DNA of 64,000 nt from an uncultured Candidatus Saccharibacteria bacterium (GTDB lineage: Bacteria; Patescibacteriota; Saccharimonadia; Saccharimonadales; Saccharimonadaceae). Numbering within the stretch: position 1 is the first letter of the stretch; each line of letters starts with the position of its first letter. The notes beneath the pieces were generated by a model, which ran no database searches, was not told the origin of the DNA, and saw only the letters and a list, made by a program, of their open reading frames with translations. Both the position numbers and the translations under genes were made by a program. Location: positions 5,808-69,807 of the forward strand of contig CAMJDZ010000003.1 in assembly GCA_946404545.1 (NCBI GenBank). The letters are read 5' to 3'. Shown piece by piece: positions 22,219 through 24,324 of this stretch.

Positions 22219-24324
22219 ATGAGTAAGCTCCGCATGGCAAGAAGCAAAAGCGCTGTAGCTATTTTTGGAGCATTTGCACTATTACTTATTGGCGGTGCCT
22301 TTGCTATATCAAACGACTCTAGCTTATTCCAAAACCCATTCGGAGTCGCGACTTACGAAACTACCGCAACCGAAACTTTTACTTCCCCTACAAACTGGAT
22401 GACCTGCGAAACCGTCGACAAGACCATCACCGTAACCAATAATAGTTCCGTACCGATAGCCGCAAGGATTAGCCTCACGGAAAATTGGAAGGACGCTGAC
22501 GGCAATGCGCTTTTTCTTACCTTTACAGACGAAAATGACAATACGCAAAACTGGGCCATCATAAACATCAATACTGACGACTGGACGAAAGATGGTTATT
22601 ATTACTACTACAAAGAAGATCTTGCTCCGGGGGCCACTTCCTCGACGTTCATGACGGGCGTCACGCTCAACTGCGACGCAAATCTTGTCGGTTCAACCCA
22701 TAATAATGCGACCTACACGCTTAGCGCCACCGTCCAAACAATTGCCGCCGACAGTAAGAGCGCTTGGTCTACGGCAGCCACTTTAATGCGGGGAGGCGAC
22801 GTCAACACGAAGCTCAAGACTATTGCGGGGACCGCTCTATATGGAGACGATCCGACTTGGACGGAAGATTACAATATCAAATCTATCCGGCGCGCCTCGT
22901 CTTTGCCGGCCAACTTTGACACTACCGACCCCGCGCATATAATATCCGCCGATGGGTCGGAGCCTATCTACGCCTGGTTCGACAATACTGACGATGCCGG
23001 CATTATCTATCTCTTCTCTAACTCTCACACGATAAAGGCCGGCAGCAATATTAGCCACGTTTGCGACCACATGCGTGCCCTCGTCGACGCCCCCGCCCTA
23101 TCTGAATGGGATATGTCTAGTGCAACCGATTTAACAGCAATGTTCCAGGGGACCTATGCTCTTGAAACTCTCGACATATCAGGATGGGACGTATCAAACG
23201 TGCGCGACATGAAGGGCTTATTCTTCGAGGCGAAGTCTCTCACTTCCCTAGATATTTCCAGCTGGGATACGTCAAACGTAGTAAACATGATGGCTATGTT
23301 CTACGGCATGGAATCTCTCGTTTCATTAAACCTATCCGGCTGGAATACATCGAACGTCTCGAATATGAGTTTTCTTTTTCATAGCACACACTCCCTAGCC
23401 TCATTAGGTCTAGCAGGTTGGGATACATCAAGCGCCACAGACATGAAGGCCATATTCTACGAAGCGCAATCGTTGACCGCATTGAACTTATCCGGATGGA
23501 ACGTGTCAAATATTACCGACATGAGCTATATGTTCTATCAAGCGAAATCCTTGACCACATTAAATGTGTCCGGTTGGGATACGTCGAAAGTAACCGATAT
23601 GAGCGCCATGTTCTCGGTTGGCGATTCTTATTTAGGCAACGGAAAGCTCGAAGAGATAATCGGGCTCGAAAATTTTGATACATCTAGTGTCACGGATATG
23701 ACGGCAATGTTCTACGGCGCCGGCCAAATGACAGCCTACAATATTTCTGGGTGGAATGTCTCGAACGTCCAGTCGCTCCAACATATGTTCTGCGATAACT
23801 TTAAGCTCAAATCGCTCGACCTATCAAGATGGAATACGATAAGCTTAAAAACTGCCTACGATATGTTCGATGACGCCAAAGCCCTCACTACCATCGGCGA
23901 TATTTCGCATTGGAACACCACAAATCTCATCGACGTAGGCGGTTTCCTAAACGGCGCCACCTCATTCGTCGGAGATAACGGTACATTTGACCTCTCCGGC
24001 TGGGACACTAGCGGCCTGATGGCCGCTGGCGAAATGTTCCGCGCCACACGCCTCACCACTGTCGATCTTACTGGCTGGACTTTTGATTCGGCCACAAACG
24101 CCACATGGCCTGGAGCTGGCAGTGGAATCTACTATGAAACCGGCAACACTTCTAGTTATAAAGGTCTCTCTGGCATGTTCCTCAACATGCCGAACCTCCA
24201 AAACGTTTACCTTACCCAAGACGGCAAAGACTCCTTTGACGCCGCCGTCGAAAGAGGCGTCAATGTCACAAAATTCTGGGAAGGTTCCCCAATCAGCGAC
24301 TTCACCATCGTCCCAAACCCATAG
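22219..24324 (+). CDS. exported surface protein B1: SipW-type signal + TasA-like N-module + BspA/DUF285-type leucine-rich repeats
   Basis: AVAIFGAFALLLIGGAFAISNDSSLF; ETFTSPTNWMTC; DGYYYYYKEDLAPG; ATYTLSATVQT. Followed by about 12 units of W[DN][TV]S[NSK]V.[DN]M..MF......L..L[ND][LI]S. Confidence 0.8.
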   Translation: MSKLRMARSKSAVAIFGAFALLLIGGAFAISNDSSLFQNPFGVATYETTATETFTSPTNWMTCETVDKTITVTNNSSVPIAARISLTENWKDADGNALFLTFTDENDNTQNWAIININTDDWTKDGYYYYYKEDLAPGATSSTFMTGVTLNCDANLVGSTHNNATYTLSATVQTIAADSKSAWSTAATLMRGGDVNTKLKTIAGTALYGDDPTWTEDYNIKSIRRASSLPANFDTTDPAHIISADGSEPIYAWFDNTDDAGIIYLFSNSHTIKAGSNISHVCDHMRALVDAPALSEWDMSSATDLTAMFQGTYALETLDISGWDVSNVRDMKGLFFEAKSLTSLDISSWDTSNVVNMMAMFYGMESLVSLNLSGWNTSNVSNMSFLFHSTHSLASLGLAGWDTSSATDMKAIFYEAQSLTALNLSGWNVSNITDMSYMFYQAKSLTTLNVSGWDTSKVTDMSAMFSVGDSYLGNGKLEEIIGLENFDTSSVTDMTAMFYGAGQMTAYNISGWNVSNVQSLQHMFCDNFKLKSLDLSRWNTISLKTAYDMFDDAKALTTIGDISHWNTTNLIDVGGFLNGATSFVGDNGTFDLSGWDTSGLMAAGEMFRATRLTTVDLTGWTFDSATNATWPGAGSGIYYETGNTSSYKGLSGMFLNMPNLQNVYLTQDGKDSFDAAVERGVNVTKFWEGSPISDFTIVPNP
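23056..24140 (+). repeat. about 12 tandem ~78-nt (26-aa) BspA/DUF285-like LRR coding repeats
   Basis: Examples: WDVSNVRDMKGLFFEAKSLTSLDISS, WDTSNVVNMMAMFYGMESLVSLNLSG, WNTSNVSNMSFLFHSTHSLASLGLAG. Confidence 0.85.

What the first reader, a model, noticed from the sequence alone, without database searches (positions are those of the whole stretch)
22219..24324. B1: TasA-like module fused to about 12 BspA/DUF285-type 26-residue leucine-rich repeats
Seen. Residues 1-175 form the shared SipW-type module. This copy lacks the Cys-loop insertion present in A1, A2, B2, B3 and S1. A spacer of about 100 aa follows, then about 12 tandem units of W[DN][TV]S[NSK]V.[DN]M..MF......L..L[ND][LI]SG (23056-24140).

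Established. This repeat matches the 26-residue bacterial surface protein repeat (BspA-like LRR, Pfam DUF285, TIGR02167). It is typical of adhesins in Tannerella, Treponema, Listeria and mollicutes.

Inference. This domain combination, an amyloid-like fibre subunit plus an LRR adhesin head, suggests display of a host-binding head on a SipW-dependent scaffold. That is plausible for attachment of an epibiont to its bacterial host.
Basis: partly seen in the sequence, partly recalled or inferred. Interest (0 to 1): 0.7.

Follow-up and report, generated by a model that had tools for sequence, protein, structure and literature searches.

The report
Fibre-subunit module fused to repeat head
A tiny bacterium that probably lives attached to other bacteria (Saccharibacteria, ruminant gut) encodes a 701-residue secreted protein that joins a self-polymerising fibre module to a large repeat "head"; it is one of about eight such genes here and may be part of a modular surface fibre not yet described in this group.

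Summary
The ORF at 22219-24324 (+) encodes 701 aa.

**Domains**
- Residues 10-208 pass NCBIfam TIGR04090, the BsaA family of SipW-dependent matrix proteins (77.8 bits, cutoff 60).
- Residues about 297-620 hold 12 repeats of 26 residues, plus one degenerate unit. They match Pfam DUF285 (1.8e-72) and TIGR02167 "PARCEL" (1.5e-72).
- The "100-aa spacer" is a folded, conserved cap domain of the head cassette, not a linker.

**Context**
- Full-length relatives (55-69% identity) were found only in ruminant-gut Candidatus Saccharibacteria genomes.
- A sipW operon lies 2 kb away, and this arrangement is conserved in two of those genomes.

**Proposed mechanism (inferred)**
- SipW cleaves after Ala29.
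- The disordered N-terminal strand (F37-x-N39-x-F41) inserts into a neighbouring subunit.
- An Asn39-Lys68 isopeptide bond, catalysed by Glu52, locks it in place, as shown for Clostridium perfringens BsaA.
- These three residues are 96-99% conserved across the 151 closest family clusters.
- The head would then be displayed on the fibre.

- The repeats do not match the BspA-type LRR_5 profile.
- TasA fibres assemble by donor-strand exchange; they are not amyloid.
- The architecture is recurrent: 27 of the 150 closest clusters carry PARCEL repeats.
- The distal head is conserved and is shared with proteins that lack the fibre module. That fits a common ligand better than a host-specific one.

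I found no literature linking Saccharibacteria to SipW or TasA fibres. This is a new variant of known kinds.

The parts
22219..24324 (+). B1 gene, 701 aa: SipW-type signal peptide, BsaA/TasA-family module, cap domain, PARCEL solenoid and C-cap
   Evidence: AF2 model pLDDT 90.8, pTM 0.78
22219..22305 (+). Signal peptide, aa 1-29. Predicted helix 14-27. Conserved G25 and A29 (A29 in 97% of family). Inferred SipW cleavage after A29.
   Evidence: the cleavage site is inferred from alignment and from BsaA (PMC11580942)
22306..22356 (+). Predicted donor strand, aa 30-46. Disordered in the monomer model. Carries the F37-x-N39-x-F41 motif (N39 codon at 22333-22335).
   Evidence: pLDDT <50 for residues 28-44; N39 97% and F41 97% conserved in 151 clusters
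22357..22746 (+). Beta-sandwich polymerisation module, aa 47-176. Holds E52 (22372-22374) and K68 (22420-22422) as candidate catalytic and acceptor residues.
   Evidence: TIGR04090 hit; E52 96% and K68 99% conserved; TasA fibre 8aur_A is the longest Foldseek match, E 0.015, TMq 0.39
22747..23106 (+). A folded alpha/beta domain that always travels with the PARCEL head.
   Evidence: pLDDT about 90-98; conserved in stand-alone ~490-aa proteins and giant Saccharibacteria proteins
23107..23574 (+). Proximal PARCEL repeats, aa 297-452: six canonical 26-aa units. This is the least conserved part of the protein.
   Evidence: 50% mean identity among orthologues; total repeat number per orthologue ranges from 7 to 15
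23575..24075 (+). Distal PARCEL repeats, aa 453-619: six units including a 33-aa insertion. This is the most conserved part of the protein.
   Evidence: 75% mean identity among orthologues
24076..24321 (+). C-terminal cap of the solenoid, aa 620-701: a degenerate repeat plus helix 667-678.
19668..20177 (-). sipW: archaeal/SipW-type signal peptidase I
   Evidence: TIGR02228 at 93.1 bits (cutoff 51.85); NF046067 SipW E 2.3e-24; synteny with the B1 orthologue in L001 and L003
19001..19678 (-). S1: short BsaA-family protein (module only), the candidate major fibre subunit
   Evidence: TIGR04090 at 121.4 bits; TIGR04088 SipW-type signal peptide; PF12389 at 23 bits
20165..20734 (-). 189-aa divergent module-like protein, first gene of the sipW operon, in the position that tapA holds in B. 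subtilis
   Evidence: Sequence read (N-terminal hydrophobic segment, GWYYYKK motif). The gene at the matching position in L001 (3220-3816) hits the B1 module weakly, E 7e-9; its homology to the window gene was not tested. Promoter-like site at 20779-20751.
18233..18979 (-). 248-aa protein with signal peptide, Pro/Thr-rich linker and C-terminal membrane anchor. Last gene of the operon and a candidate fibre anchor.
   Evidence: weak NF053819 hit, E 1e-5; terminator-like hairpin at 18208-18229
45718..47715 (+). Paralogue B2: N-module, cap and PARCEL repeats
42234..43973 (-). Paralogue B3: N-module and PARCEL repeats
47700..49691 (+). A-type paralogue: N-module plus a ~430-aa C-terminal region with no Pfam match
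57240..59132 (-). A-type paralogue, closest N-module to B1 (44% identity). It also lacks the Cys insertion.
8301..10187 (-). A-type paralogue

Best explanation
B1 is a secreted surface protein of a ruminant-gut Saccharibacterium, built from two units.

**Unit 1, aa 1-176.** This is a BsaA/TasA-family module. Three steps are inferred for it:
- The neighbouring SipW peptidase removes the signal peptide after Ala29.
- The freed, disordered N-terminal strand (F37-x-N39-x-F41) inserts into the beta-sandwich of an adjacent subunit. That subunit could be another B1, the short subunit S1, or one of the other paralogues.
- Asn39 is then covalently locked to Lys68 of the acceptor, with Glu52 as catalyst. 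This is the 'exchange-and-lock' mechanism shown experimentally for Clostridium perfringens BsaA.

B1 has both the donor strand and the acceptor residues. It can therefore sit anywhere in a chain, not only at a tip.

**Unit 2, aa 177-701.** This is a self-contained cassette: a cap domain, a stalk of PARCEL (DUF285) repeats that varies in number, and a conserved distal repeat block with a C-cap. It forms an LRR-like solenoid that would project from the fibre as a binding head.

**Shown:** the domain identities, the fold prediction, conservation of the triad residues, the synteny with sipW, and the recurrence of the architecture.

**Inferred:** SipW cleavage, polymerisation, the isopeptide lock, and any binding function. 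Adhesion is plausible, to a bacterial host or to another common surface in the rumen.
For: **Domain identity**
- TIGR04090 at 77.8 bits, above the cutoff of 60, over aa 10-208. DUF285 at 1.8e-72 and TIGR02167 at 1.5e-72.
- The N-module profile reaches a named TasA-family protein at E 2.8e-17. PF12389 is hit by 6 of 18 aligned relatives and by several long relatives above threshold.

**Genomic linkage to sipW**
- The sipW operon lies 2 kb away.
- The arrangement S1-sipW followed by a divergently transcribed B1 orthologue is conserved in two other Saccharibacteria genomes. In L001 only further module-bearing ORFs lie between sipW and the B1 orthologue.

**Structure**
- The AF2 model has pLDDT 90.8. 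The only disordered part is residues 1-44, as reported for the BsaA donor strand.

**Triad conservation**
- N39, F41, E52 and K68 are conserved at 97, 97, 96 and 99% in the 151 closest 50%-identity clusters, within an otherwise variable segment.
- In more distant relatives N and E persist, but K is present in only 53 of 121. This matches the report that only a subset of the family has the N-E-K triad (PMC11580942).

**Precedent**
- BsaA N35A, K74A and E56A mutants lose oligomerisation. A C-terminal FAST fusion to BsaA was seen at the cell surface.

**Head**
- Foldseek matches the head to LRR ectodomains at E 1.6e-5 to 1e-3.

**Selection**
- A full-length ORF is kept in at least 14 clusters at 48-71% identity.
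Against: - There is no direct alignment of B1 to C. perfringens BsaA; I could not obtain that sequence. The equivalence N39/E52/K68 = N35/E56/K74 rests on motif pattern, order and the conservation pattern. The spacings differ (13 and 16 residues here, 21 and 18 in BsaA).
- B1 itself does not hit PF12389 or TIGR04088.
- Fold similarity of the N-module to TasA is weak: E 0.015, TMq 0.39, with generic beta-sandwiches ranking alongside it.
- PDB sequence and profile searches found nothing.
- B1 is not in the sipW operon. In the window an ornithine-cyclodeaminase-family gene separates them.
- It is untested whether a 525-residue C-terminal cassette is sterically compatible with polymerisation.
- No ligand is known for any close PARCEL protein. 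The only DUF285 interaction I found is M. bovis MbovP0145 with beta-actin (PMC8707762).
Confidence: 0.6

Rival explanations
1. B1 is a monomeric surface or secreted adhesin. The TasA/BsaA-like module serves only as an export tag and stalk (SipW-type signal plus a rigid beta-sandwich spacer) and does not polymerise.
For: - B1 is outside the sipW operon.
- In C. perfringens the paralogue BsaB forms only dimers, and several paralogues lack the triad. Family membership alone therefore does not imply fibres.
- The same head works with ordinary Sec signal peptides elsewhere.
Against: - The donor motif and the E/K residues are 96-99% conserved across all 151 close clusters, whether short or long. That is hard to explain for a passive stalk.
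- The N-terminal segment is disordered yet carries invariant residues.
Confidence: 0.2
2. B1 is a specialised terminal subunit, either a tip adhesin or a basal nucleator and anchor, of a fibre built mainly from the short subunit S1. This would be analogous to FimH on type 1 pili or TapA with TasA.
For: - S1 is a module-only protein encoded next to sipW.
- In L001 only module-bearing ORFs lie between sipW and the B1 orthologue.
- Multiple BsaA/TasA paralogues per locus have been proposed to form heteropolymers.
Against: - B1 keeps both the donor strand and the acceptor residues, so nothing in the sequence restricts it to one end.
- Six large-headed paralogues in one window seem too many for a single tip position.
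Confidence: 0.15
3. The head does not target the bacterial host. It binds a common environmental or animal-derived ligand such as plant or mucosal glycans or matrix proteins, or it acts as a biofilm-matrix or coat component.
For: - The distal head is the most conserved region among orthologues, 75% against 65% for the module.
- It is 46-59% identical to heads on proteins with ordinary signal peptides from unidentified metagenome contigs, and it also occurs on giant proteins of another Saccharibacterium.
- BsaA and TasA are matrix proteins (PMC7395162, PMC11580942).
- The one DUF285 interaction found is with a eukaryotic protein.
Against: - No ligand data exist either way.
- All cultivated Saccharibacteria are obligate epibionts that need several adhesins (PMC10633639).
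- This rival concerns the target, not the assembly mechanism, so it is compatible with the best explanation.
Confidence: 0.3
4. The gene is a decaying or chimeric ORF with no function, for example an assembly or fusion artefact.
For: PARCEL elements are described as mobile and shuffled within genomes (PMC2996958).
Against: - The same full-length architecture is kept in at least 14 protein clusters and three independent Saccharibacteria assemblies at 48-71% identity.
- GC content of both halves equals the window average.
- The AF2 model is confident throughout.
Confidence: 0.02

Closest known systems
Clostridium perfringens BsaA (NCBIfam TIGR04090; sipW-bsaA-bsaB-bsaC operon)
   Same: - Same NCBIfam family, above the curated cutoff.
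- A SipW-type peptidase gene is nearby.
- Disordered N-terminal strand with a hydrophobic-x-Asn-x-Phe motif.
- Conserved Glu and Lys in the first two strands, a candidate N-E-K isopeptide triad.
   Different: - BsaA is a ~200-aa module-only protein from a Firmicute. B1 carries a 525-aa C-terminal head and comes from Saccharibacteria, a group not named among triad-bearing taxa in PMC11580942.
- The triad spacing differs.
- B1 is not in the sipW operon.
Bacillus subtilis TasA / TapA / SipW (Pfam PF12389; fibre structure PDB 8aur)
   Same: - The operon logic resembles tapA-sipW-tasA: a 189-aa protein, then sipW, then the short subunit S1.
- Beta-sandwich subunit for which donor-strand exchange is expected.
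- 8aur_A is the longest Foldseek match to the B1 module.
   Different: - B1 does not reach PF12389 by sequence.
- TasA lacks the N-E-K triad and its fibres are non-covalent.
- TasA has no C-terminal head.
PARCEL / DUF285 / TIGR02167 surface proteins (Mycoplasma lipoproteins such as MbovP0145 and the Mbov_0838 family; 'BspA family LRR surface protein' in NCBI naming)
   Same: - Same 25-26-residue repeat, with very strong profile matches.
- Surface or secreted location.
- Variable repeat number.
- Patchy distribution suggesting horizontal spread.
   Different: - Known examples use lipoprotein or ordinary Sec signals, not a TasA/BsaA polymerising module.
- B1's head also has a conserved N-cap domain and a conserved distal block.
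Tannerella forsythia BspA / Treponema LrrA (Pfam LRR_5, PF13306)
   Same: LRR-clan solenoid surface proteins implicated in adhesion.
   Different: - B1 does not hit PF13306 at E <= 1.
- From my own knowledge, not tested here: BspA-type repeats are about 23 residues long, not 26.
- The resemblance lies in the clan and in NCBI's naming, not in family membership.
Two-domain pilus adhesins (FimH of chaperone-usher pili; tip adhesins of sortase-assembled Gram-positive pili)
   Same: Same functional logic: a polymerisation domain covalently or strand-exchange-linked into a fibre, with a separate binding domain attached.
   Different: - Unrelated assembly machinery (usher or sortase rather than SipW-dependent self-assembly).
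- FimH lacks a donor strand and is restricted to the tip. B1 has both donor and acceptor features.

Membership tests
BsaA family SipW-dependent biofilm matrix protein (TIGR04090) | Profile score above NCBI's curated cutoff | tested here: met
   77.8 bits against a cutoff of 60, aa 10-208 on profile positions 2-214 of 241
BsaA family SipW-dependent biofilm matrix protein (TIGR04090) | SipW-type signal peptidase encoded in the neighbourhood | tested here: met
   sipW at 19668-20177 (TIGR02228 at 93.1 bits, above 51.85). It lies 2 kb from B1, and the arrangement is conserved in L001 and L003.
BsaA family SipW-dependent biofilm matrix protein (TIGR04090) | SipW-dependent-type signal peptide (TIGR04088) | tested here: inconclusive
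   B1 gives no TIGR04088 hit at E <= 1, while S1 does at 32.5 bits. By alignment B1 keeps G25 and A29 but has A27, I30 and S31 where the family has T, Y and F.
BsaA 'exchange-and-lock' subset (N-E-K isopeptide triad, PMC11580942) | Asn in the N-terminal donor strand, with catalytic Glu and acceptor Lys in the receiving sandwich | tested here: inconclusive
   N39, E52 and K68 are present and 97, 96 and 99% conserved. The K column is the one that varies in distant relatives. Equivalence to BsaA N35/E56/K74 could not be shown by direct alignment or by a multimer model.
BsaA 'exchange-and-lock' subset (N-E-K isopeptide triad, PMC11580942) | SDS- and heat-resistant oligomers that depend on the triad | not testable with these tools
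   Needs expression with sipW, then a western blot or mass spectrometry
TasA / camelysin (Pfam PF12389 Peptidase_M73) | Profile match above the gathering score | tested here: not met
   B1 has no hit at E <= 1 or at 0.01 for aa 1-215. Relatives do hit: S1 at 23.0 bits against 22.5, 6 of 18 members of alignment A3, and P0191, P0208, P0213 and P0231. Membership therefore holds only at superfamily level.
TasA / camelysin (Pfam PF12389 Peptidase_M73) | TasA-like fold | tested here: inconclusive
   Foldseek hit to 8aur_A: E 0.015, probability 1.00, TMq 0.39 over 195 columns. This is the longest match, but no hit reaches E <= 1e-3.
PARCEL / DUF285 (PF03382) / TIGR02167 | Tandem 25-26-residue repeats matching the profiles above cutoff | tested here: met
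   PF03382 at 241.1 bits against 25. TIGR02167 at 238.5 bits against 30, with 10 stretches. Twelve units were placed by hand.
PARCEL / DUF285 (PF03382) / TIGR02167 | Dyad symmetry of the coding DNA (the 'palindromic' part of the name) | tested here: not met
   Only one 14-nt inverted pair in 23050-24150. The reverse strand is full of stop codons. This was a light test only.
BspA-type LRR (Pfam LRR_5, PF13306) | Profile match | tested here: not met
   Not listed at E <= 1 for B1. Only sub-threshold hits to other LRR-clan models: LRR_8 at 19.7 bits against 27, and LRR_EndoS at 14.8 against 27.9.
Leucine-rich-repeat solenoid fold (clan level) | Structural similarity of the predicted head to solved LRR domains | tested here: met
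   Foldseek hits to LGR4, TLR13, TLR9, TDR and FLRT3 ectodomains, E 1.6e-5 to 1.4e-3, probability 0.95-1.0. TM-scores are low (0.12-0.18 on the query) because curvature and length differ.

The most novel reading that the evidence does not exclude
Saccharibacteria build covalently locked, heteropolymeric TasA/BsaA-type fibres in which most subunits carry their own interchangeable C-terminal head (PARCEL, A-type and other classes). This would be a modular string of adhesins, distinct from type IV pili, that mediates attachment of the epibiont to its bacterial host or niche. [quoted passage not shown]
Probability: 0.3. Interest if true: 0.8.

Novelty: new variant of a known kind. Interest (0 to 1): 0.58.

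Why it matters
How ultrasmall epibiotic bacteria recognise and hold on to their hosts is largely open. The factors named in the papers I read are type IV pili, a type IV secretion system and a few adhesins with glycan-binding domains (PMC10633639, PMC11623550).

This locus points to a further candidate surface system:
- It has a dedicated SipW peptidase and a short subunit.
- It has at least six large subunits in which the polymerising module is fused to different heads.
- Together these genes take up about 20% of a 64-kb window in what is expected to be a small genome.
- The family is large: 9,733 clusters at 50% identity. Most of the closest members carry C-terminal extensions that Pfam does not recognise.

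If the module does polymerise and lock covalently, it is a natural example of displaying folded domains on a self-assembling fibre. That would be of interest both for epibiont biology and as a protein-display scaffold.

If it does not polymerise, B1 is still a clear case of domain shuffling: a horizontally shared PARCEL head joined to a lineage-specific export and anchoring module.

Tried and rejected
- **PDB by sequence.** Neither B1 alone nor the 7-sequence N-module profile found TasA or anything meaningful. The only hits were LptC-like matches to the signal-peptide region at E 0.16.
- **Foldseek with the full model.** This gave only LRR hits plus weak Ena and Dr-adhesin matches for the N-domain. 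A separate N-domain model was needed to see TasA 8aur, and that match is still weak.
- **Tandem Repeats Finder.** No DNA-level array. The repeats are old and diverged, so recent slippage or phase variation is rejected.
- **Recent horizontal transfer judged by composition.** Rejected: GC of the module is 0.468 and of the head 0.495, against 0.479 for the window.
- **Taxonomy of the stand-alone head proteins.** Cluster look-up gave no accessions or names. The contigs belong to a bulk metagenome assembly, GCA_024712465.1, so the donor lineage stays unknown.
- **Literature.** No paper holds both Saccharibacteria and SipW. The 14 papers with Saccharibacteria and TasA are irrelevant co-mentions. No listed paper combines TasA or donor-strand terms with Patescibacteria.
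- **C. perfringens BsaA sequence.** I could not obtain it for a direct residue-level alignment. The paper has no text supplements, and the last homologue search returned no C. perfringens entry.
- **Tip-only adhesin model (FimH-like).** Ranked below the main model, because B1 keeps both donor and acceptor features.
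Full report

Yes. The window has an uninterrupted ATG-initiated ORF at 22219-24324 on the + strand, encoding 701 aa.

- Pfam DUF285 (PF03382) scores E 1.8e-72, 241 bits against a gathering score of 25.
- NCBIfam TIGR02167, now named 'PARCEL repeat-containing surface protein', scores E 1.5e-72 in 10 stretches.
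- TIGR04090, the 'BsaA family SipW-dependent biofilm matrix protein', covers aa 10-208 at 77.8 bits against a cutoff of 60.

I placed the repeats by hand. Canonical 26-residue units begin at aa 297, 323, 349, 375, 401, 427, 453, 486, 512, 538, 565 and 595, with a degenerate unit at 620. The unit at 453 carries a 33-residue insertion.

At the DNA level the repeats show only as 78-nt periodic direct repeats of 62-79% identity. Tandem Repeats Finder reports nothing. The array is therefore old and diverged, not a recent expansion.

**2. Corrections to the description**

- *The Cys-rich insertion.* It is absent from B1 but also from the paralogue at 57240-59132.
- *The '100-aa spacer'.* Residues 177-296 are not a linker. 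In the AlphaFold2 model (mean pLDDT 90.8, pTM 0.78) this region is a confidently folded alpha/beta domain. It is conserved wherever this type of head occurs, including ~490-aa proteins that consist of an ordinary signal peptide, this cap, the PARCEL repeats and the C-cap.
- *The 'BspA' label.* B1 does not match the BspA-type LRR_5 profile PF13306 at E <= 1 and gives only sub-threshold hits to other LRR models. 'BspA family LRR surface protein' is the NCBI product name attached to TIGR02167 proteins. The motif was defined as PARCEL by Roske et al. 2010, who equate it with DUF285 and TIGR02167 (PMC2996958).
- *Fold of the head.* It is an LRR-like solenoid. Foldseek matches LGR4, TLR13, TLR9 and FLRT3 ectodomains at E 1.6e-5 to 1.4e-3.

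**3. Organism and context**

Full-length relatives (55-69% identity over residues 1-700) were found only in Candidatus Saccharibacteria genomes from sheep and water-buffalo omasum and from one further metagenome.

Two kilobases from B1 lies a compact operon on the minus strand, 20734 to 18233. It has a promoter-like site at 20779-20751 and a terminator-like hairpin at 18208-18229. Its four genes are:
- A 189-aa protein with an N-terminal hydrophobic segment and the family's GWYYYKK motif.
- A SipW/archaeal-type signal peptidase I (TIGR02228 at 93 bits; NF046067 at E 2.3e-24).
- S1, a 225-aa module-only BsaA-family protein. It scores 121 bits on TIGR04090 and also hits TIGR04088 (SipW-type signal peptide) and PF12389.
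- A 248-aa protein with a signal peptide, a Pro/Thr-rich linker and a C-terminal membrane anchor.

The gene order recalls tapA-sipW-tasA of B. subtilis.

B1 is transcribed divergently and is separated from the operon by an ornithine-cyclodeaminase-family gene. The arrangement S1-sipW followed by the B1 orthologue recurs in L003 and L001. In L001 only further module-bearing ORFs lie between sipW and the B1 orthologue.

Six further ORFs in the window carry the same N-terminal module. They are S1, two more with PARCEL heads (42234-43973 and 45718-47715), and three with a ~430-aa C-terminal region unknown to Pfam. Together with the 189-aa gene, these eight genes occupy 12,864 nt, or 20% of the window.

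**4. What the N-terminal module is**

*Sequence.* It is a divergent member of the TasA/camelysin/BsaA superfamily.
- B1 passes TIGR04090 but not PF12389.
- Six of 18 aligned relatives hit PF12389, and so do several long relatives.
- The profile of the module reaches a protein named 'TasA family protein [Tissierella creatinophila]' at E 2.8e-17.

*Structure.* The evidence is weak. A separate model of aa 1-215 (pLDDT 77.9) gives no Foldseek hit at E <= 1e-3. The TasA fibre structure 8aur_A is the longest and highest-TM match (E 0.015, TMq 0.39, 195 columns), but it sits among generic beta-sandwiches. PDB sequence searches found nothing.

**5. Mechanism**

The most informative comparison is with Kivimaki et al. 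2025 (PMC11580942). In C. perfringens BsaA:
- Residues 28-38 are disordered in the monomer and insert as a donor strand into the next subunit.
- Asn35 then forms an intermolecular isopeptide bond with Lys74, catalysed by Glu56.
- N35A, K74A and E56A mutants lose oligomerisation.
- Only a subset of the family has this triad. TasA does not.

B1 shows the corresponding features.
- After the conserved Ala29 (97% of the family, the likely -1 residue for cleavage), residues 30-44 are the only low-confidence part of the model.
- Yet this segment contains F37-x-N39-x-F41. BsaA has V33-x-N35-x-F37.
- In an alignment of B1 with the 150 closest 50%-identity clusters, N39, F41, E52 and K68 are conserved at 97, 97, 96 and 99%, while the flanking positions vary freely.
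- In 121 more distant short relatives N and E persist, but the K column is Lys in only 53. That is what would be expected if this column defines the 'lock' subset.
- E52 and K68 lie in the first two predicted strands (47-55 and 65-74). If those strands pair as a hairpin, the two residues would face each other. This last point is my inference from the secondary structure only.

I therefore propose that B1 is cleaved by SipW, polymerises by donor-strand exchange and is locked by an Asn39-Lys68 isopeptide bond. Because B1 has both the donor and the acceptor elements, it need not be a tip subunit.

A C-terminal FAST fusion to BsaA was seen at the cell surface. Some C-terminal cargo is therefore compatible with surface display.

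None of these steps is demonstrated for B1. I could not obtain the BsaA sequence for a direct alignment, and the triad spacings differ (13 and 16 residues here, 21 and 18 in BsaA).

**6. The head**

Among 14 orthologous clusters, mean identity to B1 by region is as follows:

| Region (aa) | Mean identity |
|---|---|
| Donor strand (30-46) | 45% |
| Module (47-176) | 65% |
| Cap (177-296) | 58% |
| Proximal repeats (297-452) | 50% |
| Distal repeats (453-619) | 75% |
| C-cap (620-701) | 74% |

Total repeat number ranges from 7 to 15 among 17 full-length relatives. The picture is a conserved distal end on a stalk of variable length.

The same head, at 46-59% identity, occurs in two other settings.
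- On ~490-aa proteins with ordinary signal peptides, from bulk-metagenome contigs of unknown taxon.
- At the C-termini of 1,200-1,760-aa ORFs, which show no match to B1's N-module, in another Saccharibacteria genome.

This mobility agrees with the horizontal spread described for PARCELs (PMC2996958). It also argues that the ligand is something widely available rather than a strain-specific host receptor.

The only functional datum I found for a DUF285 protein is the binding of M. bovis MbovP0145 to beta-actin (PMC8707762). Adhesion is therefore plausible, but the target is unknown.

**7. How common is this, and is it known?**

An exhaustive profile search of 1.84 billion cluster representatives found 9,733 proteins with the module at E <= 1e-3, and 512 at E <= 1e-30.

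Among the best 150:
- The module is always N-terminal.
- 119 are longer than 260 aa.
- 27 carry PARCEL repeats.
- C-terminal regions fall into at least nine recurrent classes. A 36-member A-type class and a 35-member PARCEL class dominate. Most of the others have no Pfam match.

The architecture is therefore recurrent in this lineage, not unique to B1. One relative is annotated by JGI merely as an 'alternate signal-mediated exported protein'.

I found no paper connecting Saccharibacteria or Patescibacteria with SipW, TasA or BsaA. The Tn-seq study of Southlakia names type IV pili, a type IV secretion system and VCBS, dockerin and FN3 adhesins, but not this system. Kivimaki et al. name Clostridia, Coprobacillaceae, Enterococcaceae and Thermococcus as the main triad-bearing groups.

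**8. Verdict**

- The 'head displayed on a SipW-dependent scaffold' idea is the best reading. It gains a concrete, testable mechanism: donor-strand exchange plus an isopeptide lock.
- 'Amyloid-like', 'BspA-type' and 'host-binding' are respectively outdated, imprecise and untested.

Both building blocks are known kinds. What appears to be undescribed is their fusion, the family of swappable heads, and their occurrence in Saccharibacteria. I rate it a new variant of a known kind, of moderate to good interest (0.58).

Noticed in passing
window 8301-10187 (-), 47700-49691 (+), 57240-59132 (-): Three paralogues carry the same N-module fused to a ~430-aa C-terminal region with no Pfam or NCBIfam match. 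This 'A-type' head is the largest class (36 members) among the 120 extended relatives clustered. It is an uncharacterised domain.
   Followed up: partly
window 18233-20734 (-): A four-gene operon: a 189-aa module-like protein, sipW, the short subunit S1, and a 248-aa membrane-anchored Pro-rich protein. It is bracketed by a promoter-like site (20779-20751) and a bidirectional terminator hairpin (18208-18229). The order resembles tapA-sipW-tasA. The 248-aa protein weakly hits an Enterococcus sortase-dependent surface-protein family (NF053819, E 1e-5) and may anchor the fibre.
   Followed up: partly
whole window (eight genes, 12,864 nt): Eight candidate SipW substrates take up 20% of the 64-kb window, scattered among housekeeping genes (CTP synthase, ArgRS, NDK, XerC/D-like recombinase). 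This is a heavy investment if the genome is as small as those of other Saccharibacteria.
   Followed up: partly
window 45718-47715 (+) and 47700-49691 (+): Two module-bearing genes, one PARCEL-type and one A-type, lie in tandem on the same strand and overlap by 16 nt. This suggests co-transcription of subunits with different heads.
   Followed up: no
window 24331-24371 (+): A perfect sigma-70 consensus (TTGACA, 17 nt, TATAAT with an upstream TG) sits at 24331-24359, immediately after the B1 stop codon. The SpoU-methylase ORF listed from TTG 24331 therefore probably starts at ATG 24371. No terminator-like hairpin follows B1.
   Followed up: partly
L004-L012 (Saccharibacteria MAG CAMJKD, SRR12081301_bin.45): Another Saccharibacteria genome holds at least eight loci with ORFs of roughly 1,200-1,760 aa that end in the same cap plus PARCEL cassette. 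None of these ORFs matched B1's N-module (phmmer, E <= 1e-3), so the head is combined with several different N-terminal regions within the phylum.
   Followed up: partly
P0231 (1002 aa, relative): One relative combines the N-module with Listeria-Bacteroides repeats (Flg_new, PF09479) and then DUF285 repeats. Other relatives reach 1,892-1,972 aa (P0254, P0250) with no Pfam-recognisable C-terminal domains.
   Followed up: no
window 16183-17805 (-): A 540-aa multi-pass membrane protein just downstream of the sipW operon has no Pfam or NCBIfam hit at E <= 0.01. Its central region looks glycosyltransferase-like by eye. A possible link to matrix or exopolysaccharide synthesis was not tested.
   Followed up: no
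window 22219-22863 versus paralogues (alignment A2): Five of the seven modules carry a 15-25-residue insertion with 2-3 cysteines between the 'NC.AN' strand and the 'Y..ATY' strand. B1 and the 57240-59132 paralogue lack it. In the wider family, position 63 is either Gly (97 of 151) or Cys (54 of 151). This hints at two structural subtypes, with and without disulfides.
   Followed up: partly
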